Under the pieces are notes generated by a model that was not told where the DNA came from, ran no database searches, and saw only the letters and a list, made by a program, of their open reading frames with translations. DNA of 64,000 nucleotides, taken from Magnetococcales bacterium. Its GTDB lineage: Bacteria > Pseudomonadota > Magnetococcia > Magnetococcales > UBA8363. The position numbers and the translations under genes are program-made. The stretch is taken from the NCBI GenBank assembly GCA_015228925.1, contig JADGCQ010000009.1, forward strand, positions 1,515 through 65,514, given 5' to 3'. This document shows, piece by piece, positions 15,243-63,301 of the stretch (position 1 is the first letter of the stretch; every line of letters starts with the position of its first letter).

Positions 15243-15253
15243 TTCCAAAGTAT
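15207..15253 (+). repeat. 47-bp direct repeat, copy 1 (covers the radical-SAM stop and the GT-C start)
   Basis: The sequence cgttttcataagggtatggtgccgaatggcagttaattccaaagtat matches 16842-16888 at 44/47 positions. Confidence 0.9.
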
Positions 15254-16773: not shown

Positions 16774-16841
16774 CGATGTTCATAAATTTGCGAAGGCTTC
16801 TGAATTTCTTGGTCCGGTTGGCCCAAACGATGATCAAGGCC

Positions 16842-16888
16842 CGTTTTCATAAGGGCATGGTACCGAATGGCAGTTAATTCTAAAGTAT
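16842..16888 (+). repeat. 47-bp direct repeat, copy 2 (relic of the same gene junction)
   Basis: It re-encodes ...RFHKGMVPNGS-stop and then MAVNSKVSFGGIIH-stop. The upstream frame reads LLNFLVRLAQTMIKARFHKG, against LLLKLRLSAIWEGMRFHKG in the intact gene. Confidence 0.9.
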
Positions 16889-16907
16889 CTTTTGGTGGGA
16901 TAATTCA

Positions 16908-19337
16908 CTAACTCTGGGCTGGAAGCTGATCAGTGGAATTCCCAAAGAAAAAGCGGGAAAGCCAATGGATCCATCGAAGGTAGAAAAAATCTTTATACGG
17001 GGGTTCATAGGTTAAAATAACTTCGTGAATTCCCTGCGGGACCATGCAACCCAAAAAGGTGTGATAAGCGGGAAAAGCCCCGGTCGGGACTCCATCGATG
17101 CGTACCCGCCAAGCCGGATTGTAATTGAAGACCGACACGAGAATGCCTAGTGATGAGTAATCAACCCTCAGGATAATCTTGTCTGGGGAATATAAAATAT
17201 TTTGTATCTCTGCCCATTGGTTTTCCGATGGATCTCCAAAATCCACATTCCCATCTCCCTCCTGCATAAAAACATGCGATTGCAATTGCTCCCTGGAAGA
17301 TTGGCCAAGTTCCTCAAGCAATTTTTCCTTGGTAGAAAAAATCTTCTGCGCAAATACCCCAAAATAACGGGGAAACGGGTCGGTGAGACGATAGATATGA
17401 AGGATTAGGTTTTCACGCAAGCTCGGATCACCAAAACGAGACCAAAAACCAAAGGCGGCCAAAGGTTTGCGCACTTGAATGGATTCCACATGGCTCAATT
17501 CTGCATCATTGAGGCGTACAGGAGAGAAGACATAATGAACATTGGCAAGGCGTAACAGATTAATGTTTATCGATTCTCCCATTCTGAAAGGTTCATCCAA
17601 AAGCATGGTTTCCGGGAGAAGACGGAAGTATAATTTGTAGCTCCCATGGGGAAAAGGGCCAAGCCTGTTGAGAATCGGAGCGGTCATGACGTTCCAATAC
17701 TCTAAAAACCTTTTTGGAATTAGGGCATTGTAGCCGTCAATCGTTTCAAAATTATGACTGATGAGCAAAGATGGAAAATAATTTTTTTCTCTGATCATCG
17801 CCGCTCTGAATGGCATGGTATCCAACTCCGTCAGAGAATGGTGTACCCTGCGCAATTCAGGTTGATCCAGGTATTCCTGTTGACTACCACTGCGTATCGT
17901 CATCCCTATCGACTGCGTAATCCAACCCAATGTCCCGAAGGTGGTGAGCAAAAAAAGAAGGGATAGTGAGCCATAAACCAACCATTCATACCCTTTTCGC
18001 ATCCTTGAACTCGATGGCGTCCGTATTGACAGTGTTAAATAGCGTGCAGAAAATAAAAGCATCGTCAAAGGGAAAACCTGCGCAAACCGCCAAAATCGTA
18101 TAATCTTAAAAAGACCCAGTGAAAACAAAAATTCGACAAGGAATCTGGAGCCGGCCAGGAGGAATGGTAGAAGAAGAAACAAAATATCCAGCATATTCCT
18201 AGAGTATCTTTTTTCCCGCACCCCATGAAAAAAACATCCAATGGTAGCCACAAACAAACACCATCCAAGGCTCCAAGAAAATGGCGTGAGGAAATAATTG
18301 CCGATAATGGGACGATTTGTTCCGATCACTGCTGAGAAACTAGCAAAACTCTCAATTGTATGTATAACAATATCAATACTATACCAGTATATCCTCTTGA
18401 TAAACAACACTATAATGTAAACCCAGGACAGGGAAGTCGTCTCAACCAAAGGTTGCAGCAACGTCTGACTTTCTTGGATCGCTGGGTTGAAACGATATGA
18501 AAGGGGTATGGCAAACTGAACCGCCATAAAAATGGCAAGGGTTGGAATAACCATTCCAGCATGAAGGAAGGTTATGTAAATAATTCTCGATTTTAAACAA
18601 CCGCGCCCATCATAAAATAATAGAATATAAATAATTATAAATGTTGATATATACACAATATCAGCAACTTCAGCCATAAAAAAAGCCGCGTAGAAAAATC
18701 CCATCGCAAATGCTATGCTACAGGAGATCGTTTTTTTTCTGAGGTTTCCTTCAATCTCTATCAGATACGCCAACCCTCCCGTAACCCAAGGGAGTACGGC
18801 ATAGGCCATATTGGAGAAGGGGTCGTTCCGGACAGAAGTGAGGACGTAATAGAGCGTTGCCAAAAATCCTGTCAATAACCGCGATCCGTTTTCACGTTTC
18901 AGAAGAAAATAGGCCCCGGAAATCGACAGAATCATATAGAGCGCAACATTGATACGATATGCTGTCATCGGATCAAACAGATTAAATAAAATTTGATTGA
19001 TTCCTACAAATTTTTCATCCTGAGAAAGTCCATCAAAACCGGCAACGAAATTGGGATGCCAGTAGGACAGGCCGTGTTTTTTATAATTCGACGCATTTGA
19101 AATGAGTTGTATCAGAGGACCATCGACACCATCACTGAACCGGACATAGGAATCCTCTCCCAGCATAAAATAAGGGGCGAAAAGAACGATAGCCACAACG
19201 ATGAGGACGCCCCCCCAAGCAGCTTTTTTTTCATGCTGAAATCTCTCCGGTTTTTGTTCAGTTTGAATTGAGAATCCCCCGCCCCTCAGGTCTCCATTCC
19301 CATCAAAATCATCGAAGGATAGGCACGATGAAACCAA
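16908..19337 (-). CDS. YfhO-family polytopic membrane protein (GT-C type extracytoplasmic glycosyltransferase-like); start codon problematic
   Basis: 809-codon frame with about 13 or more TM helices. The C-terminal soluble domain ending ...FNYNPAWRVRIDGVPTGAFPAYHTFLGCMVPQGIHEVILTYEPP is typical of YfhO. The frame opens at a TTG (19337) without an SD. The only SD-ATG (19234) is +1 out of frame behind an A8 tract; see findings. Confidence 0.65.
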   Translation of the reverse strand: MVSSCLSFDDFDGNGDLRGGGFSIQTEQKPERFQHEKKAAWGGVLIVVAIVLFAPYFMLGEDSYVRFSDGVDGPLIQLISNASNYKKHGLSYWHPNFVAGFDGLSQDEKFVGINQILFNLFDPMTAYRINVALYMILSISGAYFLLKRENGSRLLTGFLATLYYVLTSVRNDPFSNMAYAVLPWVTGGLAYLIEIEGNLRKKTISCSIAFAMGFFYAAFFMAEVADIVYISTFIIIYILLFYDGRGCLKSRIIYITFLHAGMVIPTLAIFMAVQFAIPLSYRFNPAIQESQTLLQPLVETTSLSWVYIIVLFIKRIYWYSIDIVIHTIESFASFSAVIGTNRPIIGNYFLTPFSWSLGWCLFVATIGCFFHGVREKRYSRNMLDILFLLLPFLLAGSRFLVEFLFSLGLFKIIRFWRFAQVFPLTMLLFSARYLTLSIRTPSSSRMRKGYEWLVYGSLSLLFLLTTFGTLGWITQSIGMTIRSGSQQEYLDQPELRRVHHSLTELDTMPFRAAMIREKNYFPSLLISHNFETIDGYNALIPKRFLEYWNVMTAPILNRLGPFPHGSYKLYFRLLPETMLLDEPFRMGESININLLRLANVHYVFSPVRLNDAELSHVESIQVRKPLAAFGFWSRFGDPSLRENLILHIYRLTDPFPRYFGVFAQKIFSTKEKLLEELGQSSREQLQSHVFMQEGDGNVDFGDPSENQWAEIQNILYSPDKIILRVDYSSLGILVSVFNYNPAWRVRIDGVPTGAFPAYHTFLGCMVPQGIHEVILTYEPPYKDFFYLRWIHWLSRFFFGNSTDQLPAQS
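19210..19231 (-). repeat. A8 (19224-19231) and G7 (19210-19216) homopolymers at the 5' end of the YfhO-like gene
   Basis: The minus strand reads ATGAAAAAAAAGCTGCTTGGGGGGGC. I confirmed the tract lengths against the track translation (HEKKAAWGG). Confidence 0.85.
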
Positions 19338-52660: not shown

Positions 52661-53890
52661 ATGTCTCTTTCAGAAAAGAGGTTACAACAACGGAGAAATA
52701 AAAAAAATGCAAAAAAACAATCGCGAAAGAAAAACACTATAGGGACATTGATAGGTTCTTACGGCAACATCCATGCCGCGATCAACGCACCTGTTCATGA
52801 ATGCCTTGTCAGTGAAACTCTGGAAGATGATGGAATTGGGAATGTATTTTTCAGCAGAAAAATGTTGAATGGTGACATTGCATTAGGTTCTTTTCTTATC
52901 GATATCTATTGTTTAGGCGTAAAGGATTCTTTTTTTAGAATCATTTCAGAGCATGAATATCAACATTTTATTGGAAATAGTCCGCAGAAGATGGAAACGA
53001 TTCACCCTGCATGTGCCAGGAAACTGATTGAAGGATCGGTTGAATTTGCGCACCAATATGGAATTGCTCCGCATAAAGAATATAAAACTGTCATGTTGAT
53101 ATTTGGCGATTTTGATTCTGATGTTTGTCCTTCAAGCTATGAATATGGAAAGGACGGTGAACCATTATTTATCCCCGGACCCTATGATAGCCAAAAGAAA
53201 ATTAAAGAAATATTTGAAAAAATTGGTTACGACGATCTCAGCGTGTTAAGGGGCGTTTCTGGTGAGCTATCGCCTGAAGATTTGGAGGGATTGGGACCTG
53301 ATTACGAGTATGTTAATTTTGAGATTACTGAAGATGCATTGCCCGATAAAAAACTCGATCAACTCACGGCAGCAGAGCGTGACGAATTAGACGCAATCCA
53401 TGACCAATTGACTTTGGGATCTCACAAAGTCATACGAAGATTGCAAGAATTCATTCAGAAGTATCCAGATATTCCAGTGCTGTATAATTATCTTTTTGTT
53501 TCATACAGTTGTTCAAACAATACAGAAAAAACTATCGAAACACTTGCAAAATGCATGGAATTATTCCCCGATTATTTATTCTCGAAAATTGCTCATTGCC
53601 ATCAAAAAATGAATGAAGGCGATATGGAAATTGTTCCAAAAGTTTTTGATGGAAGATTTGATCTCTCTTTCCACATCAAGGATAGAAGAACATACCATAT
53701 TTCTGAGTTTACAGGCTTTAATGCACTCATGGTTCGTTATTTTAAAATGATCGGAAAAGAAAGAATTGCAAAAAATTTTCTTGAACTATTGGAAAGAGTT
53801 GCTCCAGACCATCCTACCACCCAGAGTGCCAAACGCTTTCTCAATCCAGGACTTCTCCATAAATTTATTAATAAGATGCGAAATGTATGA
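52661..53890 (+). CDS. hypothetical protein (409 aa; basic N-terminus, helical-repeat C-terminal half)
   Basis: It is a long uninterrupted ORF in the AT-rich island. The N-terminus is KRLQQRRNKKNAKKQSRKKN. I can name no catalytic motif. Confidence 0.5.
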   Translation: MSLSEKRLQQRRNKKNAKKQSRKKNTIGTLIGSYGNIHAAINAPVHECLVSETLEDDGIGNVFFSRKMLNGDIALGSFLIDIYCLGVKDSFFRIISEHEYQHFIGNSPQKMETIHPACARKLIEGSVEFAHQYGIAPHKEYKTVMLIFGDFDSDVCPSSYEYGKDGEPLFIPGPYDSQKKIKEIFEKIGYDDLSVLRGVSGELSPEDLEGLGPDYEYVNFEITEDALPDKKLDQLTAAERDELDAIHDQLTLGSHKVIRRLQEFIQKYPDIPVLYNYLFVSYSCSNNTEKTIETLAKCMELFPDYLFSKIAHCHQKMNEGDMEIVPKVFDGRFDLSFHIKDRRTYHISEFTGFNALMVRYFKMIGKERIAKNFLELLERVAPDHPTTQSAKRFLNPGLLHKFINKMRNV

Positions 53891-54068
53891 AGAGGAAAGT
53901 ATCGCTTCAATGTTTTGCAAAATTGACCTTAGCAGGGGAGGCCAAACCTTCAATTGGCATCGGTCACCATCAACCATTTTGACACTCCGGGGCACAACCG
54001 TGTTGTCATGGACCTCATTTCATGCTACTAAAAATCAGGAATATCCCATTTAAAGAGGAGATGGTGTC

Positions 54069-54461
54069 ATGTCGTCTGTCGTTCGCAAGGCCATGCTTGG
54101 GGCATGGGTTCTTCTGGGGGGTACCCTCGCATGTACCGGGGTAGCCAATGCCGAAAATCGTGGTCAGTTAAGCTATGCCGATGATGTTCGTCCCATCCTG
54201 CAAATCCGTTGCATGGAATGCCATTCGGGCAACGGTGCCGGGGTCACCGCCAGCGGTTTGAACTTGGAAACCTACGAAGGCCTGATGAAAGGGACCCGCT
54301 TCGGACCCATCGTCATCCCCGGCAATGCCATGGTCAGCAATCTCAACGTCCTGGTGGAAGGACGCGCCGGTATCCGCATGCCCCACGACCGCAAACGGTT
54401 GACCTCCTGTGAAACATCGATCCTGCACGATTGGGTCAATCAAGGGGCCAGAAACAACTAA
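54069..54461 (+). CDS. secreted mono-haem c-type cytochrome domain protein
   Basis: The signal peptide ends in ...GVANA. There is a single haem-binding motif CMECH, in the context DVRPILQIRCMECHS. Confidence 0.7.
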   Translation: MSSVVRKAMLGAWVLLGGTLACTGVANAENRGQLSYADDVRPILQIRCMECHSGNGAGVTASGLNLETYEGLMKGTRFGPIVIPGNAMVSNLNVLVEGRAGIRMPHDRKRLTSCETSILHDWVNQGARNN

Positions 54462-54579
54462 ATCAGTCTTATGACACTTTAGGGCGTGGCGTTGGTGCCA
54501 GGGCTTGGTGTCCGGTGTGTAATCGCCGGAACGCCTTTGGTTTGCTGTACCTGAAACGACTCTCCAAGGATGGTGAATC

Positions 54580-55896
54580 ATGCGCATTACCATGATCGGT
54601 ACCGGATACGTCGGGTTGGTTTCCGGGGCTTGTTTTTCCGAGTTTGGGGCCGAGGTCATCTGCGTCGATTGCGATACCTCCAAGATTGATCGACTGAATC
54701 GGGGGGAAATTCCCATCTTCGAGAACGGGCTGGAAGAACTGGTCACCCGTAACCATAAAGAAGGGCGGTTGCTTTTTCAGACCGATACTGCCGCAGCGGT
54801 CGCCGCTAGCGACGTGGTGTTTATCGCCGTGGGAACCCCGGAACGCCGTGGCGATGGTGCCGCCGACCTGCGCTATGTTTTTCAGGCGGCACGCGATGTG
54901 GCACGCGGCATTCAAAAATTTACCGTCGTCGTCACCAAATCCACAGTCCCCGTCGGGACCGGCCAGCAGGTGGCGCGGATCATCCGTGAAGAAAACCCCG
55001 AGGCCGATTTTGAAATGGCCTCCAATCCCGAATTTTTACGCGAAGGGGCCGCTATCGAAGATTTCATGCGGCCCGACCGGGTTGTCATCGGTGTGGAATC
55101 GGACCGGGCCGCCCAGGTTTTAAGAAATCTTTATCGTCCTCTGTATCTCAGTGAAACCCCCATACTCATCACCAATATTGCCACCGCTGAGTTGACCAAA
55201 TATGCCGCCAACGCTTTCCTGGCGACAAAAATAACCTTTATCAATCAATTGGCCAATCTTTGTGAATCGGTTGGGGCGGATGTTCACCACGTCGCCAAAG
55301 GGATGGGATTGGACCAACGGATTGGCAGCCAGTTTTTGCAACCCGGTCCCGGTTATGGTGGCTCGTGTTTCCCCAAGGATACCCAGGCCCTGGTGAAAAC
55401 CGCCCGGGAACATGGCCAACCCATGGGGATCGTCGAGCAAGTCATCGAAGCCAACCGCCTGCAAAAAGAGCGGATGGTGGATAAAATCGTCGGTGCCCTG
55501 TCGGGAACGGTCGCTGGCAAACAACTTGCGGTCCTTGGACTCACGTTCAAGTCCAATACCGATGATCTGCGGGATGCCCCGGCACTGACAATATTGCCGG
55601 CACTGCTCCGTCAGGGGGCGATCATACGGGCTTATGATCCCGAAGGGATGCGGGGGGCGGCCCAGCTTCTTCCCGGTGTGGAAATGGTCCAAGGCCCCTA
55701 TGAGGCCTGCAAGGATGCCGATGCCCTGATTATTCTCACCGAGTGGAACCAGTTTCGCAACCTGCAACTGGACCGCTTGAAAACACTGTTAAAACCACAG
55801 CCAGGCACAGGCCAGGTCTTCTGCGATTTGCGAAACATCTACGAACCCGCTCTGATGAAAGAGCTTGGATTCCACTACATCTGCGTAGGCCGCTAA
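54580..55896 (+). CDS. ugd: UDP-glucose 6-dehydrogenase
   Basis: The N-terminal NAD motif is ITMIGTGYVGLVSGACF and the catalytic Cys context is GGSCFPKD. 438 aa. Confidence 0.9.
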   Translation: MRITMIGTGYVGLVSGACFSEFGAEVICVDCDTSKIDRLNRGEIPIFENGLEELVTRNHKEGRLLFQTDTAAAVAASDVVFIAVGTPERRGDGAADLRYVFQAARDVARGIQKFTVVVTKSTVPVGTGQQVARIIREENPEADFEMASNPEFLREGAAIEDFMRPDRVVIGVESDRAAQVLRNLYRPLYLSETPILITNIATAELTKYAANAFLATKITFINQLANLCESVGADVHHVAKGMGLDQRIGSQFLQPGPGYGGSCFPKDTQALVKTAREHGQPMGIVEQVIEANRLQKERMVDKIVGALSGTVAGKQLAVLGLTFKSNTDDLRDAPALTILPALLRQGAIIRAYDPEGMRGAAQLLPGVEMVQGPYEACKDADALIILTEWNQFRNLQLDRLKTLLKPQPGTGQVFCDLRNIYEPALMKELGFHYICVGR

Positions 55897-55899
55897 CCC

Positions 55900-57294
55900 A
55901 TGAATGCAATCAATCCGCACATTTTTCGTGAATACGATATCCGGGGCATTGCCGGAAAAGATTTGACCGAGTCTTTGGTATTCGACTTGGGCCGAATTTT
56001 TGCCAGCCGCCTTCGCAAAGAACTTTCCCTGGTTACCCCACCCAGGGTGGCGGTCGGTCGTGATGGTCGCCTCTCCTCGCCACAACTGGCGGCAAAACTC
56101 GCCGCCGGATTGGCCCAAGGGGGTGCCCTGGTGGATGATGTCGGGTTGGTTCCCAGTCCTGGGCTTTATTTCGCCATGCATCATTTCAAGGCCGATGCCG
56201 GGATCATGATCACCGGCAGTCATAATCCGCCCGATTATAATGGCATGAAAATGGTCAAGACCAGCCGCCCCGTCTATGGCGACCAGATTCAGGAACTCAA
56301 ACACGCCCTCATGGCAGAATCCTTTGAGGATCATCCCGGCGGAGCCATCCACAAGACGGATATCCTGGACGCCTACCTGCAACGGTTGATTGTGGATTTT
56401 AAACCGGGTCGCCCAGTCAAGGTGGTCCTGGATTGCGGCAATGGGGCCAGTGGTGTCATTGCGCCGCAACTTTTGGAAAAACTTCCCGGAATCGAGGGGG
56501 AGGTGCTGTTTGCCGAGGTCGATGGCCGCTTTCCCAACCATCACCCCGATCCAACCCTCCCCGAAAATCTTCATCAACTGCGCCAGCGTATGCAGGAGAT
56601 CGGTGCCGAGATCGGCATCGCCTACGATGGGGATGGGGATCGCATCGGTGCTTTGGACCATCAGGGTAAGATCGTCTGGGGGGATCGCATGATGATCCTG
56701 TTCGCCCGCCAGATTCTCATTACCCATCCGGGTGCAACCATCATTGGCGACGCCAAATGTTCCCAGGTGATGTTTGATGCCATTGCCCAGGCGGGGGGGA
56801 ACCCCTTGATGTGGAAAACCGGGCATTCGTTGATCAAAACCAAGATGAAGGAGACCGGTGCCCCTCTGGCGGGTGAAATGAGCGGCCATTTATTCTTCGC
56901 CGACCGCTACCTGGGGTTTGATGATGCCCTTTATGCCACGGTGCGCCTCCTTGAAATCATTGCCCAGGCCCCCTCCACGCTGGCGGAACGTCTCAGCGAC
57001 CTCCCCGAAGTTCATGCCACCCCCGAACTGCGCATCGACTGCCCAGATGAGAAAAAGTTTCAGGTCATGGCACGCATCCTCCAGGGGGAACGGGACAAAG
57101 GCTCCGATTTTTCCGATGTCGATGGGGTTCGCGTCCGTTGCGATGGTGGGTGGTGGTTGCTGCGGGTTTCCAATACCCAACCGGCCCTGGTCGCACGGGT
57201 GGAAGCCAACACCTTAAAACGGCTGCACGAAATCGCCCAGGAGGTCGCAGCTCTCCTGAAGCCGGAAGGGGTCTTTCTTCCCGCCTGGGAATGA
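55900..57294 (+). CDS. phosphomannomutase/phosphoglucomutase (alpha-D-phosphohexomutase)
   Basis: The active-site phosphoserine loop is TGSHNPPDYNG, the metal loop is DGDGDR and the sugar loop is GEMSGH. Confidence 0.9.
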   Translation: MNAINPHIFREYDIRGIAGKDLTESLVFDLGRIFASRLRKELSLVTPPRVAVGRDGRLSSPQLAAKLAAGLAQGGALVDDVGLVPSPGLYFAMHHFKADAGIMITGSHNPPDYNGMKMVKTSRPVYGDQIQELKHALMAESFEDHPGGAIHKTDILDAYLQRLIVDFKPGRPVKVVLDCGNGASGVIAPQLLEKLPGIEGEVLFAEVDGRFPNHHPDPTLPENLHQLRQRMQEIGAEIGIAYDGDGDRIGALDHQGKIVWGDRMMILFARQILITHPGATIIGDAKCSQVMFDAIAQAGGNPLMWKTGHSLIKTKMKETGAPLAGEMSGHLFFADRYLGFDDALYATVRLLEIIAQAPSTLAERLSDLPEVHATPELRIDCPDEKKFQVMARILQGERDKGSDFSDVDGVRVRCDGGWWLLRVSNTQPALVARVEANTLKRLHEIAQEVAALLKPEGVFLPAWE

Positions 57295-57342
57295 CCGTTT
57301 TATGGACGGTCGGAATGATGGCAGAACATTGAGAGAATCATC

Positions 57343-58671
57343 ATGAGAATTGACCGCCTGAAGGTGACCCATTTCAAGGGATTTAATTCCCGTGAATTTA
57401 TGTTTCACCCCCAATTCAATCTGATCGTGGGGATGAACGGTACTGGGAAAACCAGTGTCCTTGATGCCCTGGGGGTGACAACAGGTGTTTGGCATATAGG
57501 AATGAAGAATAATGTTATCAATCTTATTCATCCTGATGCGATAAGGCTCTGTCAATTTAAGCATAAGGATAGTACCGAGGATGAAGAGTACCATTCCAAC
57601 ATACAGTGGGAACATGTTTATCCCTGTGAAGTTTCTGCCTCTGGCTTGGTTCAAGGTCAAAACCTCTCCTGGACCATCTCTCAGACTTCTCAGTCCCGCT
57701 TCAGTGTGGTTGAAGGTTCAACCAGGATCATGCAGATGGCCGCAGAGACTGCTCAATCCATTCGCAATGGATCAAACATCCCTTTGCCGCTCATCTCCTA
57801 TTATAGCCTCGGAAGGTCGCGGCAGGAGCCACACGGCTCATCCAAAATAACTGACCCCATGGAAATTGTCAGCAAAGAGGATCAATCCCGTCTGTCTGAA
57901 TATTGGAACTCTGTCGATCCCAATTTTTCGGTCATCCATCTGACACGCTGGATTGCACGACAATCGTGGATTGCCTTTCAGCAGTCAAGTCGCGTTCCAC
58001 CTGTGTTCCTGGCGGTCAAAAAAGCTATGGTTTCCTGCATTGAGGGGGCAAGTGATCTTTATTTCGATCCCAACCTTGGGGAAGTTGTCGTGGCATTATC
58101 CACAGGAACACTCCCTTTTTCCTATTTAAGTGATGGGCAACGCTCCATGTTGGCCATGGTGGGTGATATCGCGCTTAAAGCAGCCAAATTAAATCCACAG
58201 TTTGGCAGTACCGTCTTGGAGGAAACATCGGGGGTGGTGCTGGTCGATGAACTCGATTTGCACCTTCATCCACGCTGGCAACGGGGTGTGATCGAAGATT
58301 TGCGGCGCGTATTCCCCAAGATTCAATTTATTTGTACCACCCACTCCCCGTTCCTGATTCAATCGTTGCGCAGTGGTGAAGAGTTGATCGTCCTTGATGG
58401 CCAACCCACGGCTGAAGTAGCAAACAAATCGATTGAGGAAGTCGCGCTGGGTATTCAAGGGGTTAATGGTATTCACGTCAGTCAACGATATAAAGAAATG
58501 GAAAATACGGCCCAACGCTATCTTGAAATGCTGGAACAAGGTTCCGCCGTTCCGAGAGATCAACTGGAAGCGTTCAAAAACAGGTTGGCTGGAGAGTTGA
58601 TGCCCTATGCGGACAACCCAGCATTCCAGGCTTTCCTGGAAATGAAGCGTGCGGCCAAGCTGGGGAGTTGA
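57343..58671 (+). CDS. ptuA: Septu-type PtuA-like ABC/SMC-fold ATPase
   Basis: The N-terminus is MRIDRLKVTHFKGF, Walker A is GMNGTGKTS, and Walker B plus the D/H-loop region is VVLVDELDLHLHP...TTHSP. 442 aa. An HNH gene follows directly. Confidence 0.7.
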   Translation: MRIDRLKVTHFKGFNSREFMFHPQFNLIVGMNGTGKTSVLDALGVTTGVWHIGMKNNVINLIHPDAIRLCQFKHKDSTEDEEYHSNIQWEHVYPCEVSASGLVQGQNLSWTISQTSQSRFSVVEGSTRIMQMAAETAQSIRNGSNIPLPLISYYSLGRSRQEPHGSSKITDPMEIVSKEDQSRLSEYWNSVDPNFSVIHLTRWIARQSWIAFQQSSRVPPVFLAVKKAMVSCIEGASDLYFDPNLGEVVVALSTGTLPFSYLSDGQRSMLAMVGDIALKAAKLNPQFGSTVLEETSGVVLVDELDLHLHPRWQRGVIEDLRRVFPKIQFICTTHSPFLIQSLRSGEELIVLDGQPTAEVANKSIEEVALGIQGVNGIHVSQRYKEMENTAQRYLEMLEQGSAVPRDQLEAFKNRLAGELMPYADNPAFQAFLEMKRAAKLGS

Positions 58672-58674
58672 ACC

Positions 58675-59412
58675 ATGAGGCCGGTATGTCGTGGCTCATC
58701 GCCCCAAACTGACGATTTTTCAAATTATAGCGATGCCAAGCCAGAGTTGGTATCACGGCTCGGCCCATATTGCAGTTATTGTGAGCGACCGATTCATACA
58801 AACTTAGCCGTGGAGCATATCCAACCCAAGGGGCTGGCGGAATATGCACATCTGGTGGGGTGCTGGAGCAACTTCCTTTTGGCTTGCGTCAACTGTAATT
58901 CGTCCAAATTGGACAAAAATGTCAATCTAGCACAGACGATCCTGCCAGATCGTGATAACTCTTTTTTTGCACTCCGTTATCTCCCAGATGGTCGGATTGA
59001 GCCATCTGCCGCAGCCATATCTGGAGACTTCAAGACGATGGTTGCGGAAACGTTAGCATTGACCGGGTTAGACAAGGCCATGGTCATAACGCTTGATAGC
59101 CATGGCAGACAGGTTGCGTTGGATCGAGTGAGCCAACGTATGCAGATATGGCTCAAAGCTGAAGATGCCAAAACGGATATTGAGAATAATCCAGCAAATT
59201 CCGTTCTTCGAGAATTCGCCGCAAAATTAGCCGTTGCGGAAGGTTTTTTTAGTATTTGGATGACAGTTTTTGACGGCGATCCCGATATGCGCAACCGTTT
59301 GATCGATGCCTTTCCAGGGGTAAGGGGGAGTGGTTGTTTTGACCCGATCAGCACAGCCCCCGTTTCACCCGCTCCCAATCCTGATGGTCTGGCCCATGGT
59401 GGCAAGATATGA
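58675..59412 (+). CDS. ptuB: Septu-type PtuB-like HNH endonuclease
   Basis: The HNH core is CSYCERPIHTNLAVEHIQPK...NFLLACVNCNSSK. 245 aa. It starts 3 nt after the ATPase stop. Confidence 0.7.
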   Translation: MRPVCRGSSPQTDDFSNYSDAKPELVSRLGPYCSYCERPIHTNLAVEHIQPKGLAEYAHLVGCWSNFLLACVNCNSSKLDKNVNLAQTILPDRDNSFFALRYLPDGRIEPSAAAISGDFKTMVAETLALTGLDKAMVITLDSHGRQVALDRVSQRMQIWLKAEDAKTDIENNPANSVLREFAAKLAVAEGFFSIWMTVFDGDPDMRNRLIDAFPGVRGSGCFDPISTAPVSPAPNPDGLAHGGKI

Positions 59413-60341
59413 AACCGTTGGATACCGCAATCCTGTTGGCTGGAGTCCCTTTGGCCTCCCCGGTCACGTTGTTATCGGGGTGTGTCGGTTTTTGTGAAGA
59501 CTTGGCCCGTATGGAAGGGTTTGATTTTTCTGCCGTAGGGGCTATTTTCCTCAAGGGGACCACACTTCAGGCGCGCCAGGGCAATCGACCACCACGGGTT
59601 GTGGAAACGCAAGGGGGGATGCTCAATGCCATCGGGTTGCAAAACCCCGGGGCACGCCATGTCGTCGATCATATCCTCCCCACCATTCAACACCTGCCGA
59701 CCCGTTTTTTCGCCAATATTGCCGGTTCCACCGTGGCGGAATATGGTGAAGTCGCCCGCATTTTCGATGACAGCCCCGTGGATGGGATCGAAATCAATAT
59801 TTCCTGCCCCAACGTCAAGGAGGGAGGGGCCGCTTTTGGTTCCGATCCCAAGGTTGCGGCACACGTCGTTGAAACCGTGAAACGGGTAACCTCCAAGCCG
59901 GTCATCACCAAACTTTCCCCCAATGTCACCGATATCACCCGTGTAGCCCAAGCGGTTATCGATGCCGGCACCGATGCCATATCCGCCATCAACACCCTGA
60001 TGGGAATGGCCATCGACCTGGAAAAACGCCGTCCTGTCCTGGGTAACGGCCAAGGGGGACTCTCTGGACCCGCCATCAAACCTGTGGCATTACTACAAGT
60101 CTGGCGTATTCACCAAATTGCCGGACCCAGGGGTATTCCCATCGTCGGCCAAGGGGGAATCACGACCGCACGCGATGCCATGGAATTTATGGTCGCTGGT
60201 GCCACGGCCATTGGATTGGGTACCGCCCTATTTCGTAATCCCCTGGGGGCCAGGGAAGTCCTGGATGGTATGGTGGCCTGGGGCCAACGCCTGGGTGTTG
60301 CAAACTTCCATGAGATCAGGGGGACACTCAACCAACCATGA
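59409..60341 (+). CDS. pyrD: dihydroorotate dehydrogenase, class 1 catalytic subunit
   Basis: Supporting sequences are GMLNAIGLQNPG, EINISCPNVK (active-site Cys) and GGLSGPAIKP...VGQGGI. The ATG overlaps the ptuB stop (ATGA). Confidence 0.85.
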   Translation: MKPLDTAILLAGVPLASPVTLLSGCVGFCEDLARMEGFDFSAVGAIFLKGTTLQARQGNRPPRVVETQGGMLNAIGLQNPGARHVVDHILPTIQHLPTRFFANIAGSTVAEYGEVARIFDDSPVDGIEINISCPNVKEGGAAFGSDPKVAAHVVETVKRVTSKPVITKLSPNVTDITRVAQAVIDAGTDAISAINTLMGMAIDLEKRRPVLGNGQGGLSGPAIKPVALLQVWRIHQIAGPRGIPIVGQGGITTARDAMEFMVAGATAIGLGTALFRNPLGAREVLDGMVAWGQRLGVANFHEIRGTLNQP

Positions 60342-60401
60342 TGACCACCCCCATGATGCCATTTCCCCTTCCGGCATCGCGGATAAACAGGAGTCACTTT
60401 C

Positions 60402-61370
60402 GTGCATGTCGTATTGGCGCAACCCCGGGGATTCTGCGCCGGGGTAGAACGGGCAATAGCCATCGTGGAAAAAGCCCTCGAAGTCTATGGGCCACCTTTG
60501 TATGTTCGCCATGAAATCGTCCACAACCGGAGGGTGGTGGAATCTCTGCGGCGCAAGGGGGCGGTATTCGTCGATGAGCTTGACTTGGTTCCCGATGGTG
60601 CCACGGTGATTTTTTCCGCCCACGGTGTATCCAAGTCTGTCGCCCAAGAGGGCCATCGCCGTCCATTGCGCGTATTGGATGCCACCTGCCCCCTGGTGGA
60701 AAGGGTCCACCGCCAAGCCGTCCGCTTCCATGATGAAGGGTATCGCGTCATCCTCATCGGCCATCCCGGTCATCCCGAAGTCGAAGGGACCGTCGGACAA
60801 CTGCCACCGGGAAACATGGAGGTCATCAAAGATGAACAGGCCGTCGGCACCCTTCCCCACAGCCATGATCACAAAGTCGCCTATATCACCCAAACCACCC
60901 TCTCATTGGACGAAACCGCCGAGGTGGTCCAACAATTACAGGCCCGTTTTCCCAACATTCGGGCACCTGGACGAGAAGATATCTGCTACGCGACCCAAAA
61001 TCGACAAAACGCCGTCAAGGCTCTCACCCAACGTTGCGATCTGATTTTGGTATTGGGCGCGCCCAACAGCAGTAATTCCAACCGCCTGCGGGAAGTGGCC
61101 GAACGAGGAGGGACACCCGCCTATCTCATCGAGTCAGCGACCGATGTTCACATGGCGTGGTTTGAGGGCGTTCAAACTCTGGGGATCACCGCAGGGGCCT
61201 CCGCCCCGGAAATATTGATCGATGAACTACTGGCCCATCTGCATGTGGATCATCACAATGTCGAAGTGTTGTCGGTCAACGAAGAAAATCTTGTCTTCCC
61301 CCTCCCCAGGGAGTTGATCAAAGACATGGATATGATCTCTCCATCGTCATCACAGCCCCCCCCACAGTGA
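60402..61370 (+). CDS. ispH: 4-hydroxy-3-methylbut-2-enyl diphosphate reductase
   Basis: Supporting sequences are PRGFCAGVERAI, HEIVHN, DATCPLV and NSSNSNRL. Confidence 0.9.
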   Translation: MHVVLAQPRGFCAGVERAIAIVEKALEVYGPPLYVRHEIVHNRRVVESLRRKGAVFVDELDLVPDGATVIFSAHGVSKSVAQEGHRRPLRVLDATCPLVERVHRQAVRFHDEGYRVILIGHPGHPEVEGTVGQLPPGNMEVIKDEQAVGTLPHSHDHKVAYITQTTLSLDETAEVVQQLQARFPNIRAPGREDICYATQNRQNAVKALTQRCDLILVLGAPNSSNSNRLREVAERGGTPAYLIESATDVHMAWFEGVQTLGITAGASAPEILIDELLAHLHVDHHNVEVLSVNEENLVFPLPRELIKDMDMISPSSSQPPPQ

Positions 61371-61383
61371 TCCATCGGCCACC

Positions 61384-62208
61384 ATGCGTCCAACCAAACC
61401 AACCTTGGAACATTCCAGAATCGGAATTATCTTCTGGATTTTTTCCATCCTCTGGCTCATGGGATATGGCCATGGCTGGAGTATGGACAACCAGGATGCC
61501 TGGGGAGGCGTTCCGGGGGAAACATTGGAATTTGATCTTCAATGGTTGGGGATACCGGCGGGTCGCGCTTCCATCATGATGACGACCGAATCGGTTCAAC
61601 GGGTCAATTTTGAGGCGGAAGCACGCACCATTGGGGTATTAAAAATTTTTGGTCCATTCCATGATCGCATCCGTGCCATCGCTCGGAAAGGCCCTGTAGA
61701 TTTTACCAGTTTGGAAGTCTTCAAAGATCAACGCAAAGGTCAGGATATTCGCCTGACCCATGATTTTTTTGATTGGAAGAACAGGCTTCTCACCCGAAAC
61801 CGCCAGGGAGAAGACCTCAAAGGATTACCCCTTGAAAAACCTGGTACCAACGACCCGGTGACAGGATTTTTTTCCATCCGCAGCCTCCCCGATTTTGGCC
61901 CGGGGAAAACCATACAAAAACCCATGCAGGTGGGATGGGCCATCGAAGAGGTTACATTTCGGGCGGATGGTGTGGAACGACGCTTAAGTCCAGTGGGTTG
62001 GTTTGATGTATTCCGGGTCCGCTTGGAGATCCCCCATTCGGATCTGTTTCACCAGCCGGATGATCTGGTCCTATGGTTGACGGCAGACCGGAGACGATTA
62101 CCCATCCGGGTCGAATCGGTATTACGCCTCGGTCGCGCCTCAGCCGACCTGATTGCCTATGATGATGGTCGTGGTGGAAAAAAATCCGCTGATAAGGAAA
62201 AAAAATAA
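61384..62208 (+). CDS. DUF3108-like periplasmic/outer-membrane protein
   Basis: It has an N-terminal hydrophobic signal and a beta-rich sequence with LEFDLQWLGIPAGRASIMM, typical of DUF3108. Confidence 0.6.
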   Translation: MRPTKPTLEHSRIGIIFWIFSILWLMGYGHGWSMDNQDAWGGVPGETLEFDLQWLGIPAGRASIMMTTESVQRVNFEAEARTIGVLKIFGPFHDRIRAIARKGPVDFTSLEVFKDQRKGQDIRLTHDFFDWKNRLLTRNRQGEDLKGLPLEKPGTNDPVTGFFSIRSLPDFGPGKTIQKPMQVGWAIEEVTFRADGVERRLSPVGWFDVFRVRLEIPHSDLFHQPDDLVLWLTADRRRLPIRVESVLRLGRASADLIAYDDGRGGKKSADKEKK

Positions 62209-62951
62209 TGGCTCCCCGTGTTATCGCAATCATCCCCTCCCGTTTTTCCTCCCAACGCCTGCCGGGCAAACCGCTGTTACCCATGGCGGGCAAACCCATG
62301 ATTCAGCATGTCTACGAACGGGCCATCCGGGCTAGGTTGGACGATGTGATCGTTGCTACCGACGATGAACGCATTCAAGCGGCAGTCCAGGGTTTTGGCG
62401 GTCGCGTGGTCATGACCCGCACAGACCATCTTTCCGGTACCGACCGCGTGGCCGAAGCGGCTCTGGGGTTGGATGCCGATTTTATCGTCAATATTCAGGG
62501 TGACGAACCCCTCTTGGATCCAGAGGCCATCAATCAGGCGGTCACCCCCTTTTTGACCGATGACCGTCTGGTCATGTCCACTCTGGCGCATCGCATCACC
62601 CAGCCTGCGGAAATCATGGATCCCAATGTGGTCAAGGTGGTCTGCAACGCCCAGGGGTTTGCCCTTTATTTTTCCCGCGCCCCCATACCGTGGGCGCGAT
62701 ACGAAGACCATGGACCTCCTGGTGCTTGGCGTCACATTGGCCTGTATGTATTTGGCAAAGATTTTCTGGCCCTGTTTGCCGCCCTCCCCCCGACCCCTTT
62801 GGAAAAACGCGAAGGATTGGAACAACTGAGGGCTTTGGAACACGGATACCCGATACGTGTCGTGCCGTCCAATGCGGGGGCATTGGGGGTGGATACCAGG
62901 GCCGACTATGAAAAAGTCCGTTGCATTCTGGAACAGGGAGAACAATCATGA
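62208..62951 (+). CDS. kdsB: 3-deoxy-manno-octulosonate cytidylyltransferase (CMP-KDO synthetase)
   Basis: Supporting sequences are IIPSRFSSQRLPGKPL, VATDDERI and NIQGDEPL. Confidence 0.9.
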   Translation: MAPRVIAIIPSRFSSQRLPGKPLLPMAGKPMIQHVYERAIRARLDDVIVATDDERIQAAVQGFGGRVVMTRTDHLSGTDRVAEAALGLDADFIVNIQGDEPLLDPEAINQAVTPFLTDDRLVMSTLAHRITQPAEIMDPNVVKVVCNAQGFALYFSRAPIPWARYEDHGPPGAWRHIGLYVFGKDFLALFAALPPTPLEKREGLEQLRALEHGYPIRVVPSNAGALGVDTRADYEKVRCILEQGEQS

Positions 62952-63301
62952 ATGAACCTTCCGGGACCATCGAATTCAATCCCAAACGGGTTTCCCAACG
63001 CCTGACGGAACAAACGCCCGCCATCCTCCGCATTGACAAAGAAAAAATTCCCGTCGAAATTCTTGATATCGGGGTTTCCGGTTTCGGCCTTCATGCCATG
63101 GTTGGGTTGGATTTGGGAAACCTTGTCGAATTGGAGGTTACCAGCGACGGCAGCTTGGATGCTTATATTTGCAAGGTTGTTTTTTCCAGTCAGGAGGGAA
63201 GACATTTCCGTATCGGTCTTGAAATCCTTGAACAGGAACCAGAAATCGTCATCATGTCACCCGATGACGAGGAGGCGCAATATCTTAATATGGGAGAATG
63301 A
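62948..63301 (+). CDS. PilZ-like domain protein
   Basis: RVSQR fits the RxxxR motif, and LDIGVSGFGL is an imperfect DxSxxG. About 117 aa. The ATG overlaps the kdsB stop. Confidence 0.5.
   Translation: MNEPSGTIEFNPKRVSQRLTEQTPAILRIDKEKIPVEILDIGVSGFGLHAMVGLDLGNLVELEVTSDGSLDAYICKVVFSSQEGRHFRIGLEILEQEPEIVIMSPDDEEAQYLNMGE

What the first reader, a model, noticed from the sequence alone, without database searches (positions are those of the whole stretch)
57343..59412. Septu-type (PtuA ATPase + PtuB HNH) defence pair inserted into a housekeeping run and translationally overlapped with pyrD
**The pair.** A 442-aa ABC/SMC-fold ATPase has Walker A GMNGTGKTS and VVLVDELDLHLHP. Three nt later comes a 245-aa HNH nuclease (CSYCERP...EHIQPK...CVNCNSSK). 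This is the two-gene architecture described for the Septu anti-phage system.

**Placement.** It sits with the same orientation between the phosphomannomutase gene and pyrD. The ptuB stop overlaps the pyrD start (ATGA at 59409-59412), and there is no mobile-element scar, integrase or flanking repeat.

**Composition.** The pair is visibly more AT-rich than its neighbours. My spot counts of single lines gave about 40-45% GC, against about 62% in the phosphomannomutase gene.

**Why it matters.** A defence cassette welded into a pyrimidine/isoprenoid/KDO gene run implies that pyrD expression may now depend on read-through from the defence genes.

**Retron check.** No reverse transcriptase or structured ncRNA precedes it, so it is not a retron-PtuAB.
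Basis: partly seen in the sequence, partly recalled or inferred. Interest (0 to 1): 0.6.

Follow-up and report, generated by a model that had tools for sequence, protein, structure and literature searches.

The report
Septu defence pair inserted before pyrD
A two-gene anti-phage system of the known Septu type (PtuA ATPase and PtuB nuclease) was inserted, without any mobile-element trace, into a housekeeping operon of a magnetotactic bacterium, and its last gene now shares four bases with the start of pyrD; it is a real but ordinary member of a known family in an unusual position.

Summary
ptuA (57343-58671, 442 aa) and ptuB (58675-59412, 245 aa) lie 3 nt apart, and the ptuB TGA overlaps the pyrD ATG (ATGA, 59409-59412).

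- **Family:** PADLOC gives full-length type I Septu matches (PtuA 8e-124, PtuB 7e-74). The PtuA model best matches the stand-alone E. coli Septu PtuA. There is no retron RT, ncRNA, tRNA, integrase or flanking repeat.
- **Insertion:** The host is a Magnetococcales bacterium. Seventeen more distant relatives have manB directly next to pyrD. Three close genomes from independent assemblies carry the identical insertion.
- **Selection:** The genes are under purifying selection, except PtuA residues 45-135 (dN/dS 1.1-1.5).
- **Right-hand join:** The ATGA end is not unique to this site. In 10 of 81 informative loci of this subfamily the pair sits between hsdS and hsdR, with the same ptuB-stop/hsdR-start overlap. 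The window junction AAGATATGAAAC is identical to one of them.
- **Overstated claims:** The GC contrast is 48.5-49.5% against 57%, not 40-45% against 62%. pyrD probably already depended on upstream transcription before the insertion.

Verdict: a new member of a known kind, of modest interest.

The parts
55900..57294 (+). manB/phosphomannomutase, the left flank. In relatives it is the gene directly upstream of pyrD.
   Evidence: All four Pfam PGM_PMM domains match. ugd-manB-pyrD synteny holds in 15 Magnetococcales loci, and two short contigs (L007, L039) also show manB next to pyrD.
57295..57342 (+). 48-nt spacer between manB and ptuA. It holds a small hairpin (GACCGT...ACGGTC), a weak GAGAG ribosome-binding site and the cassette-type 'tcatcATG' start context. 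The left insertion boundary lies somewhere inside it.
   Evidence: Sequence. The spacer has the same length in L016 and L086. Folding is not better than shuffles (z = -1.0) and no U-tract follows the hairpin. The 'tcatcATGagaattgacc' context is shared with L088.
57343..58671 (+). ptuA: Septu ABC/SMC-type ATPase, 442 aa
   Evidence: PADLOC PDLC00278 PtuA1, E 8e-124, residues 1-440 of the protein on profile positions 1-433 of 436. Pfam AAA_21, AAA_15 and SMC_N. Sequence match to PDB 8ee4 PtuA, E 3e-32. AlphaFold model pLDDT 79; the top 11 Foldseek hits are E. coli Septu PtuA.
57430..57456 (+). Walker A motif GMNGTGKTS (residues 30-38)
   Evidence: Translation. G30, N32, G35, K36 and T37 are invariant in 60 family members.
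57475..57747 (+). Fast-evolving patch of PtuA (residues 45-135): the end of the P-loop helix plus a beta-meander, taken here to be the lobe-I 'helix-grip' sheet
   Evidence: dN/dS is 1.53, 1.11 and 1.13 in the three pairwise comparisons, against 0.06-0.26 for residues 1-44 and 251-442. Fisher test of patch against rest, p = 1.4e-6. It is the most variable stretch family-wide (entropy 1.63 against a mean of 1.09). Secondary structure.
58126..58143 (+). ABC signature motif LSDGQR (residues 262-267), with the canonical Gln
   Evidence: L262, S263, D264, G265 and R267 invariant. E. coli Septu PtuA has Leu at the Gln position (alignment; PMC12819146).
58234..58272 (+). Walker B and D-loop, VVLVDELDLHLHP (residues 298-310)
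   Evidence: D302, E303, D305, H307 and H309 are invariant.
58675..59412 (+). ptuB: Septu HNH nuclease, 245 aa
   Evidence: PADLOC PDLC00315 PtuB1, E 7e-74, residues 1-226 on profile positions 1-216 of 227. Pfam HNH 25.5 bits, above the 21.4 cut-off. 1,826 homologues, the best all 243-247 aa, with a conserved C-terminus ...SPAPNPDxLxxGGKI.
58771..58908 (+). HNH/zinc-finger core (residues 33-78): CxxC...EH...N...CxNCN
   Evidence: C33, C36, H48, N66, C71, N73, C74 and N75 are invariant in 43 homologues. E47-H48 aligns with the retron PtuB 'EH', given as catalytic E56/H57 in PMC13376987.
59409..59412 (+). ATGA: the ptuB stop (TGA) overlapping the pyrD start (ATG). This is the right insertion junction.
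   Evidence: The junction is identical in L016 and L081. The same ATGA joins ptuB to hsdR in 10 other loci, and AAGATATGAAAC is identical in L090.
59409..60341 (+). pyrD (class 1 dihydroorotate dehydrogenase), the right flank
   Evidence: NCBIfam NF005574, 364 bits against a 269 cut-off; Pfam DHO_dh.

Best explanation
This is a stand-alone (type I) Septu anti-phage system.

**Acquisition.** An ancestor of this Magnetococcales lineage acquired a compact ~2.07-kb ptuA-ptuB cassette by horizontal transfer. It was inserted between manB and pyrD, inside a long run of same-strand housekeeping genes (cytochrome c, ugd, manB | pyrD, ispH, DUF3108, kdsB and onwards).

**Expression (inferred).** No promoter-like or terminator-like site was found for the cassette itself. 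It is most likely transcribed by read-through from the host operon. pyrD is translated from an ATG that overlaps the ptuB stop.

**Origin of the right join (inferred).** In this Septu subfamily the ptuB stop commonly overlaps the start codon of the next gene. In every other such case found, that gene is hsdR of a type I restriction-modification operon. The right junction is best explained by recombination at the short shared sequence ATGAAA(C). This would have put the start of pyrD where the start of hsdR used to be.

**Mechanism (by homology, not shown here).** PtuA binds ATP and forms an oligomeric scaffold that holds the PtuB HNH nuclease inactive. Phage infection, sensed through a phage protein and/or a fall in ATP, releases nuclease activity against DNA or tRNA-Tyr. 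Phage replication then stops at the cost of host growth.

**Sensor surface (inferred).** The fast-evolving patch of PtuA (residues 45-135) is the best candidate for the surface that meets the phage trigger or a phage inhibitor.
For: **Shown: family**
- Full-length PADLOC PtuA1 and PtuB1 hits.
- All ATPase and HNH catalytic motifs are intact and invariant in the family.
- The PtuA fold is closest to stand-alone E. coli Septu (8EEA, 8EE4, 8SUX), ahead of retron PtuA.
- The ptuA-ptuB spacing of 3 nt is the commonest spacing in 87 loci.

**Shown: insertion**
- manB and pyrD are adjacent in 17 Magnetococcales loci that lack ptuAB.
- Identical junctions occur in three independent assemblies: the window, PEAO01000023, and the SRR22388047 contigs L086 and L081.
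- The manB-to-pyrD block is collinear with L016 over 4,442 nt without an indel.
- The cassette GC lies below its flanks here and in three other hosts.
- The family is spread across Gamma- and Betaproteobacteria, Desulfobacterota, Chlorobi and Planctomycetes.

**Shown: the genes are functional**
- dN/dS is 0.15-0.31 for ptuB and for the catalytic parts of ptuA, with dS like that of the flanking genes.

**Shown: origin of the ATGA**
- The PtuB C-terminus is native to the family.
- In 10 of 81 informative loci, ptuB's TGA overlaps the ATG of hsdR. The window's 12-nt junction is identical to that of L090.
- pyrD of the nearest relative without Septu starts ATGAAAAAACCG (L001).

**From the literature: mechanism**
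- A 6:2 PtuA:PtuB complex with ATP-inhibited DNA nicking (Li et al. 2024, as cited in PMC12640716 and PMC12819146).
- Cleavage of the tRNA-Tyr variable loop, with Walker A/B and HNH residues required (PMC13096335).
- Sensitisation by the phage tail fibre (PMC12819146).
Against: - No experiment exists for this subfamily. The nearest solved Septu PtuA shares only 22-26% identity in the fold alignments.
- The PtuB model is poor in the HNH region (pLDDT below 50), and its match to Septu PtuB 8eea_G is weak (E 0.046, TM 0.31).
- Absence of a promoter is argued only from a sigma-70 consensus scan that may not suit this organism.
- PtuA here has the canonical signature Gln, whereas E. coli Septu has Leu there and was reported to lack ATPase activity (PMC12819146). 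Regulation may therefore differ.
- The microhomology account rests on 6-7 nt and on one relative's pyrD start.
- dN/dS in the patch is not significantly above 1 (binomial p = 0.19), so relaxed constraint is not excluded.
- No type I R-M genes are in the window. If this subfamily needs an R-M partner, the copy here may behave differently.
Confidence: 0.8

Rival explanations
1. The pair is a decaying or domesticated remnant. It was acquired once and is no longer an active defence system. It is kept only because deleting it would damage pyrD expression, since the cassette now carries pyrD's start codon and ribosome-binding context.
For: The pair lacks the type I R-M partner that accompanies part of this subfamily. 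The pyrD start and its GGTGG Shine-Dalgarno-like sequence lie inside ptuB, so clean loss is constrained. The ptuA ribosome-binding site is weaker (GAGAG) than the GGAGG found in other hosts.
Against: Both ORFs are intact in three diverged genomes. dN/dS is 0.15-0.31 over the catalytic regions, and every catalytic residue is retained. A pure spacer role would not conserve protein sequence.
Confidence: 0.08
2. The pair is a retron-type (type I-A retron, 'type II Septu') effector whose reverse transcriptase and ncRNA lie elsewhere.
For: NCBIfam's only PtuA and PtuB models are the retron Ec78 ones, and they give partial hits. PDB hits include many retron PtuA and PtuB chains.
Against: The retron models score far below their cut-offs (183 against 500 bits; 33 against 150) and cover only part of PtuA. 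PtuA is 442 aa against ~550 aa for retron PtuA, so it is too short to carry the N-terminal extension and helical flap that PMC12819146 describes as retron-specific. Only 48 nt lie upstream. There is no Rfam hit. The neighbours are manB and pyrD. The best fold matches are stand-alone Septu.
Confidence: 0.02
3. The junction is an assembly or binning artefact: a chimeric contig that joins a defence island to housekeeping genes.
For: The related sequences compared here come from metagenome-assembled genomes and metagenome contigs. The SRR22388047 assembly breaks between ptuA and ptuB (L086 and L081).
Against: Three independent assemblies from different samples give the same left junction (48-nt spacer) and the same right junction (ATGA), with sequence divergence of 2-25% between them. 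Synonymous divergence of ptuAB matches that of the flanks.
Confidence: 0.02
4. The elevated dN/dS in PtuA residues 45-135 reflects relaxed constraint on a structurally tolerant surface sheet, not an arms race with phage.
For: dN/dS is not significantly above 1 (p = 0.19). The same stretch is the most variable across the whole family. Its pLDDT is lower, 68-81 for residues 51-90.
Against: The patch keeps its length (no indel against L016, one against SRR22388047), keeps predicted strands, and retains invariant residues W50, G53, P94, G101 and W110. The rate is about five to ten times that of the rest of the same protein in all three comparisons.
Confidence: 0.35

Closest known systems
Stand-alone (type I) Septu, PtuA + PtuB (Doron et al. 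2018; E. coli Septu structures 8EE4, 8EE7, 8EEA and 8SUX, Li et al. 2024)
   Same: Two adjacent same-strand genes. PtuA is an ABC/SMC-type ATPase with Walker A, signature, Walker B and H-loop motifs. PtuB is an HNH nuclease with a helical C-terminal domain. PADLOC PtuA1 and PtuB1 match over their full length. The best fold match is E. coli Septu PtuA.
   Different: Only 22-26% identity to the solved E. coli PtuA in the fold alignments. The signature motif has the canonical Gln, not Leu. The pair is embedded in a housekeeping operon, its stop codon is shared with pyrD, and it has no promoter or terminator of its own that I could detect.
Retron type I-A (Ec78/Eco7, Ec83/Eco4) PtuAB effectors
   Same: Homologous ATPase and HNH pair. 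The catalytic EH of PtuB aligns. The PtuA C-terminal helices and the PtuB C-terminal domain are expected to form the same interface.
   Different: No RT, ncRNA or msDNA. PtuA is ~110 residues shorter, too short to carry the N-terminal extension and helical flap that bind RT and msDNA (PMC12819146). The NCBIfam retron models are far below their cut-offs.
PrrC / RloC anticodon nucleases linked to type I R-M (prr locus: hsdM-hsdS-prrC-hsdR)
   Same: An ABC-ATPase-type regulatory module plus a nuclease that can target tRNA. Many copies of this subfamily are encoded exactly between hsdS and hsdR. [quoted passage not shown]
   Different: Not homologous in the nuclease (HNH protein against the PrrC ACNase domain). 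Two proteins, not one. The window copy has no R-M genes nearby. The parallel is one of position and logic only and was not tested.
OLD-family, Gabija GajA and PARIS AriA ABC-ATPase defence proteins
   Same: ABC ATPase of the AAA_15/AAA_21 type coupled to a nuclease.
   Different: Their nuclease is a Toprim domain, fused or partnered, not a separate HNH protein. The best-scoring PADLOC models for PtuA are PtuA models.

Membership tests
Septu type I (PtuA1 + PtuB1) | PtuA: ABC/SMC-type ATPase that matches Septu PtuA profiles over its full length | tested here: met
   PADLOC PDLC00278, E 8e-124, residues 1-440 on profile positions 1-433 of 436. The listed top hits are PtuA models, apart from one retron-type ATPase_I-A model. 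Pfam AAA_21, AAA_15 and SMC_N are above their cut-offs.
Septu type I (PtuA1 + PtuB1) | Intact nucleotide-binding motifs in PtuA (Walker A Lys, signature, Walker B Asp-Glu, H-loop His) | tested here: met
   K36, LSDGQR 262-267, D302-E303 and H334 are present, and (Q266 apart, nearly invariant) invariant in 60 homologues.
Septu type I (PtuA1 + PtuB1) | PtuB: HNH nuclease that matches Septu PtuB profiles, with catalytic His/Asn and zinc-binding Cys residues | tested here: met
   PADLOC PDLC00315, E 7e-74. Pfam HNH 25.5 bits against a 21.4 cut-off. C33, C36, H48, N66, C71, C74 and N75 are invariant.
Septu type I (PtuA1 + PtuB1) | ptuA directly followed by ptuB on the same strand | tested here: met
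   3-nt gap. The same arrangement holds in 86 of 87 related loci, with spacings mostly -4 to +4 nt.
Septu type I (PtuA1 + PtuB1) | PtuA fold like the solved Septu PtuA | tested here: met
   Model pLDDT 79, pTM 0.75. The top 11 Foldseek PDB hits are 8EEA, 8EE4 and 8SUX (E 1e-26 to 1e-23, TM 0.60-0.77).
Septu type I (PtuA1 + PtuB1) | PtuB fold like the solved Septu PtuB | tested here: inconclusive
   Model pLDDT 67, with the HNH region below 50. The only hit with probability >=0.9 is 8eea_G (Septu PtuB), but E is 0.046 and TM 0.31.
Septu type I (PtuA1 + PtuB1) | Protection against phage that depends on the ATPase and HNH motifs | not testable with these tools
   Needs heterologous expression and phage challenge. 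Shown for E. coli Septu in PMC13096335.
Septu type I (PtuA1 + PtuB1) | PtuA6:PtuB2 oligomer with ATP-inhibited nuclease activity | not testable with these tools
   Known for E. coli Septu (Li et al. 2024, as cited in PMC12640716). No complex prediction was run here.
Retron type I-A (retron-Septu) | Adjacent reverse transcriptase and msr/msd ncRNA | tested here: not met
   The neighbours are manB and pyrD. The upstream spacer is 48 nt. There are no Rfam hits at the gathering threshold or at E<=1.
Retron type I-A (retron-Septu) | PtuA of ~550 aa with an N-terminal extension and a helical flap | tested here: not met
   PtuA is 442 aa. NF041760 matches residues 224-344 only, 183 bits against a 500 cut-off. 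Retron PtuA chains of 542-552 aa align only with the C-terminal ATPase half.
Type I R-M-embedded Septu (hsdS-ptuA-ptuB-hsdR arrangement seen here) | hsdS upstream and hsdR downstream of the pair | tested here: not met
   No hsdM, hsdS or hsdR similarity anywhere in the window. The window shares only the ptuB-stop/start-codon overlap with that arrangement.

The most novel reading that the evidence does not exclude
This Septu subfamily may natively be a promoter-less module that lives inside other operons. Its ancestral home would be between hsdS and hsdR of type I R-M systems, where it could act as a PrrC-like back-up that fires when phage disables restriction.

On this reading the window copy is an escaped orphan. 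It would have been transplanted by recombination at the start-codon microhomology ATGAAA(C) in front of pyrD. A potentially toxic abortive-infection nuclease would then be expressed with, and translationally coupled to, a pyrimidine-synthesis gene, without its R-M partner. The fast-evolving helix-grip sheet of PtuA (residues 45-135) would be its phage-sensing surface.
Probability: 0.2. Interest if true: 0.55.

Novelty: new member of a known kind. Interest (0 to 1): 0.3.

Why it matters
- **Defence genes outside defence islands.** This is a clean, datable example of a defence system that sits inside a core metabolic operon, not in a defence island or on a mobile element. It has no recombinase, repeat or tRNA. 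Island-based searches can miss such systems.
- **Loss becomes costly.** The host now depends on the cassette for the start codon and ribosome-binding context of pyrD. That makes clean loss of the defence genes costly.
- **A testable link to restriction.** The survey also shows that this Septu subfamily is often embedded between hsdS and hsdR with the same stop/start overlap. This is a testable hint of functional coupling between Septu and type I restriction.
- **A candidate sensor surface.** The localised fast-evolving patch in PtuA gives a concrete target for finding how stand-alone Septu senses phage.
- **Limits.** None of this changes the classification. It is a Septu system.

Tried and rejected
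- **Exact-sequence look-up of the window PtuA:** not on record. The organism was identified through pyrD relatives instead.
- **Read-through tail hypothesis:** I suspected that the last ~20 residues of PtuB arose by read-through into the old manB-pyrD spacer. Rejected: the best homologues (243-247 aa) share the same length and a conserved ...SPAPNPDxLxxGGKI end.
- **Flanking repeats or target-site duplication:** only chance-level matches.
- **Terminator after manB:** the hairpin in the 48-nt spacer has no U-tract, folds no better than shuffles (z = -1.0), and one stem pair is broken in L086.
- **Promoter scan:** no plus-strand sigma-70-like site in 54000-63000. This is uninformative for the organism and is not used as proof.
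- **Retron:** rejected.
- **Search for an empty site in near-identical strains:** the pyrD 5' pattern gave 0 hits in JGI metagenomes. The exact left boundary therefore remains undefined.
- **Left boundary from hsdS remnants:** comparing the 48-nt spacer with hsdS 3' ends of R-M-embedded copies showed no convincing similarity beyond ~10 nt before the ATG.
- **Plasmid or phage carriers:** only distant hits, at most 37% identity, with Bacillus plasmids best.
- **PtuB structure:** the model was too poor in the HNH region to be decisive.
- **Other window ORFs against PADLOC:** nothing convincing. There was a generic sigma-54 activator and a radical-SAM protein with a weak pVip hit.
- **Li et al. 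2024:** the paper could not be read. Its results are cited through later papers.
Full report
**1. The observation**

The ORF list shows ptuA at 57343-58671 (442 aa), ptuB at 58675-59412 (245 aa) and pyrD at 59409-60341, all on the + strand.
- The quoted motifs are all present.
- Three bases (ACC) separate ptuA from ptuB.
- The ptuB TGA and the pyrD ATG form ATGA at 59409-59412.
- manB ends at 57294, leaving a 48-nt spacer.
- The NCBIfam pyrD profile aligns from residue 7 to profile position 6, so the ATG at 59409 is the sensible start.
- No tRNA, no Rfam family at the gathering threshold or at E<=1, and no meaningful flanking repeats are present.

The composition claim is right in direction but too strong. 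ptuA is 48.5% GC and ptuB 49.5%, against 57.1% for manB and 56.8% for pyrD. The window as a whole is 51.1% GC, and a quarter of equally long windows are as AT-rich or more so.

**2. What the genes are**

- **PtuA.** PADLOC assigns it to PtuA1 (PDLC00278, E 8e-124, full length). Pfam finds AAA_21, AAA_15 and SMC_N.
- **PtuB.** PADLOC assigns it to PtuB1 (PDLC00315, E 7e-74). Pfam finds HNH above its cut-off.
- **Repair ATPases excluded.** RecF, Rad50 and SMC models match only the P-loop end, far below their cut-offs.
- **Solved structures.** The closest by sequence is the stand-alone E. coli Septu PtuA (8ee4, E 3e-32).
- **PtuA model.** An AlphaFold model built from 60 homologues (pLDDT 79, pTM 0.75) has as its 11 best PDB matches the E. 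coli Septu PtuA chains 8EEA, 8EE4 and 8SUX, ahead of all retron PtuAs.
- **PtuB model.** It is poor in the metal-binding HNH region. It gives only a weak best hit, which is nonetheless Septu PtuB 8eea_G.
- **Motifs.** The catalytic residues are invariant across the family (Q266 nearly so): K36, LSDGQR, D302-E303 and H334 in PtuA; C33, C36, H48, N66, C71, C74 and N75 in PtuB.

The retron alternative fails on anatomy (48 nt upstream, manB and pyrD as neighbours) and on protein architecture (442 aa against ~550 aa; retron models far below cut-off).

**3. It is an insertion**

A scan of one genome per species with pyrD shows the host is a Magnetococcales bacterium.
- Gene mapping of the 80 loci and junction reading show ugd-manB-pyrD synteny in 15 Magnetococcales loci: L003-L006, L008, L009, L013, L017, L018, L021, L031, L035, L057, L065 and L068.
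- Two short contigs (L007, L039) also show manB next to pyrD.
- In all 17, manB lies directly next to pyrD, with spacers of 4-150 nt.
- In five loci the spacer is longer and filled with REP/MITE-like palindromes (L013, 125 nt; L018, L031, L057 and L065, 340-730 nt).
- None of the 17 has ptuAB.

The pair is present at this site only in three genomes:
- the window;
- L016 (MAG DCbin2, PEAO01000023; flanking proteins 96-98% identical);
- a third genome assembled from run SRR22388047 as two contigs. L086 carries ugd-manB, the 48-nt spacer and ptuA. L081 carries ptuB, the ATGA, then pyrD-ispH-DUF3108-kdsB.

The manB-to-pyrD block is collinear with L016 over 4,442 nt without an indel. Three independent assemblies with diverged sequence rule out a chimeric contig. 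The two next-closest relatives (L001 and L002; pyrD 85% and 82%) have contigs that end in repeat-rich non-coding DNA just upstream of pyrD. They are therefore uninformative.

**4. The genes are maintained, and one patch evolves fast**

For the window against L016:
- The flanking genes have dN/dS of 0.06-0.22.
- ptuB has 0.19 and ptuA 0.51.
- Synonymous divergence is in the same range as in the flanks (dS 0.11-0.16 against 0.07-0.19), so the pair has been inherited together with its flanks.

The excess in ptuA is local.
- Residues 45-135 have dN/dS of 1.53 (54 non-synonymous to 10 synonymous changes). The rest has 0.15-0.28.
- The two comparisons with the third genome give 1.11 and 1.13 for the patch and 0.06-0.26 for the ends.
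- Patch against rest is highly significant (Fisher p = 1.4e-6).
- The patch is not significantly above neutrality (p = 0.19).
- The same stretch is the most variable across 116 family members.
- In the model it is the end of the P-loop helix plus a four-to-five-strand beta-meander.

I take this meander to be the lobe-I 'helix-grip' sheet. Its loops contact msDNA in retron PtuA, and its 'm loop' is longer in stand-alone PtuA (PMC12819146). That the patch is a phage-facing sensor or inhibitor-contact surface is my inference.

**5. Where the ATGA comes from**

I first suspected that the PtuB tail was created by read-through. It was not. Of 1,826 homologues, the best are all 243-247 aa and end in the conserved ...SPAPNPDxLxxGGKI.

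I then sampled genomic contexts of this subfamily: seven loci found by exact protein look-up and 80 from metagenomes. Of 81 loci with enough downstream sequence:

| Loci | Arrangement after ptuB |
|---|---|
| 10 | TGA overlaps the ATG of a long ORF, and that ORF is hsdR |
| 1 | TGA overlaps the ATG of a long ORF that is not hsdR (the window, pyrD) |
| 11 | ATGA kept, with no long gene reading from it |
| 2 | hsdR-like sequence downstream, without an intact ATGA-coupled ORF |
| 57 | No ATGA |

- Where the upstream region is visible in the hsdR cases, the order is hsdM ... hsdS-ptuA-ptuB-hsdR (L089, L090, L097, L123).
- The window junction AAGATATGAAAC is identical to that of L090 (ptuB/hsdR).
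- The pyrD of the nearest relative without Septu begins ATGAAAAAACCG (L001).
- The simplest account is recombination at the shared ATGAAA(C), so that the cassette's overlapped start codon became pyrD's start codon. This step is inferred.
- R-M-embedded copies are scattered over a rough NJ tree of PtuB, and the window clade lies next to one such group. The tree has no support values, so this is weak evidence.
- The left boundary could not be fixed. Only about 10 nt before the ATG resemble other copies, and no empty site in a near-identical strain was found.

Other contexts:
- Two other Magnetococcales carry the subfamily at different sites: purL|ptuAB|...maf-ffh-rpsP in Magnetococcus WYHC-3 (L087), and another locus in L088.
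- One Pseudomonas copy lies in an integrase-bearing island (L091).
- The cassette's GC is below its flanks in each host checked.
- No close copies are on plasmids or phages.

**6. How it most likely works**

Shown:
- family membership;
- intact motifs;
- insertion into a same-strand gene run with tiny spacers (3, 48, 3, -4, 60, 13, -1 nt);
- purifying selection.

Inferred:
- The cassette is transcribed with the host operon.
- pyrD is made by translational coupling from the overlapped ATG. The GGTGG formed by the conserved Gly-Gly codons of PtuB would serve as the ribosome-binding sequence.
- In relatives manB and pyrD are only 4-150 nt apart. pyrD therefore very likely depended on upstream transcription before the insertion, and the cassette lengthened that dependence.

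By homology, from the literature:
- PtuA binds ATP and assembles a scaffold (6:2 with PtuB in E. coli) that keeps the HNH nuclease quiet.
- Infection releases activity against DNA (nicking) or tRNA-Tyr (variable loop), which causes growth arrest.
- Walker A/B and HNH residues are required.
- Sources: PMC12640716, PMC12819146, PMC13096335 and PMC13376987.

A difference worth noting: this PtuA has the canonical signature Gln. The E. coli Septu PtuA has Leu there and was reported to lack ATPase activity (PMC12819146; alignment).

**7. Comparison with known systems, and verdict**

It meets every testable defining feature of type I Septu. It fails those of retron-Septu. It is not itself R-M-embedded.

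It is a new member of a known kind. The unusual points are:
- scarless residence inside a housekeeping operon;
- a stop codon shared with pyrD;
- an overlap that appears inherited from an hsdR-linked ancestry;
- a sharply localised fast-evolving patch in PtuA.

These are useful details and not a new system, so interest is modest (0.3). The positional parallel with PrrC (PMC2610378) and the sensor-patch idea are leads, not findings.

Noticed in passing
window 52661-53890 (+): A 409-aa ORF in a strongly AT-rich stretch (GC 0.37, GC3 0.31) between carA and a small cytochrome c gene. It has no Pfam or PADLOC hit. Among the fetched relatives it is found only in L016, at 87% aa identity while the neighbours are 96-98%. 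It is probably another horizontally acquired, fast-evolving gene.
   Followed up: partly
L089 8001-13165; L090 7001-11409; also L093, L097, L111, L119, L123, L126, L127, L170: In 10 of 81 informative loci this Septu subfamily is followed by hsdR of a type I R-M operon, with the ptuB TGA overlapping the hsdR ATG. hsdS is seen upstream in L089, L090, L097 and L123, and overlaps ptuA by 11 nt in L089 and L090. This is the position of prrC in the E. coli prr locus (my own knowledge) and suggests functional coupling of Septu with type I restriction (PMC2610378).
   Followed up: partly
window 21211/21543, 31887/32052, 46127/46265; L013, L018, L031, L057, L065 manB-pyrD spacers; L001 1-410; L002 1-188; L016 10950-11160: REP/MITE-like palindromes (GGGGGATTGCCCCC ... 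GGGGGCAATCCCCC and relatives) occur as pairs in the window. They fill the enlarged manB-pyrD spacers of several relatives. A ~200-nt copy sits between pyrD and ispH in L016 but not in the window. The operon's intergenic spacers are therefore recurrent targets for small non-coding mobile elements.
   Followed up: partly
window 55900-62951 compared with L086 and L081: Synonymous divergence is mosaic between the window and the SRR22388047 genome. ispH, DUF3108 and kdsB have dS 0.02-0.03, while manB has 0.17, ptuA 0.26, ptuB 0.21 and pyrD 0.14. This points to homologous recombination between strains, with a breakpoint near the pyrD/ispH boundary and older alleles kept at the Septu locus.
   Followed up: no
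L087 8001-10049 (Magnetococcus sp. WYHC-3); L088 8001-10070: Other Magnetococcales carry the same Septu subfamily at different sites, again between ordinary genes with no recombinase nearby (L087: purL | ptuAB | ... maf-ffh-rpsP-rimM-trmD). The called ptuA start in L087 is probably 21 nt too far downstream, because ATGAGAATTGACC lies upstream.
   Followed up: partly
window 13700-18000; ORF 14181-15239 (+): A 41-44% GC stretch holds a 353-aa ORF with partial, weak PADLOC pVip (viperin-like radical-SAM) hits (E 7.5e-19, profile positions 3-151 of 257). The hit may be to a generic radical-SAM domain. The neighbouring large ORFs have no PADLOC hit.
   Followed up: no
window 58126-58143 (PtuA residues 262-267): The ABC signature motif is LSDGQR with the canonical Gln, as in retron PtuA. 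The solved E. coli stand-alone Septu PtuA has Leu there and was reported to lack ATPase activity. This subfamily may hydrolyse ATP (PMC12819146).
   Followed up: no
L082 1951-3598: The closest homologue outside the syntenic group (PtuB 70%, PtuA 67%) is preceded by a 1.6-kb stretch without called genes. That stretch holds a tandem repeat (read in one frame as CRPS units), a run of N, and an open frame of 347 codons. Its nature was not determined.
   Followed up: no
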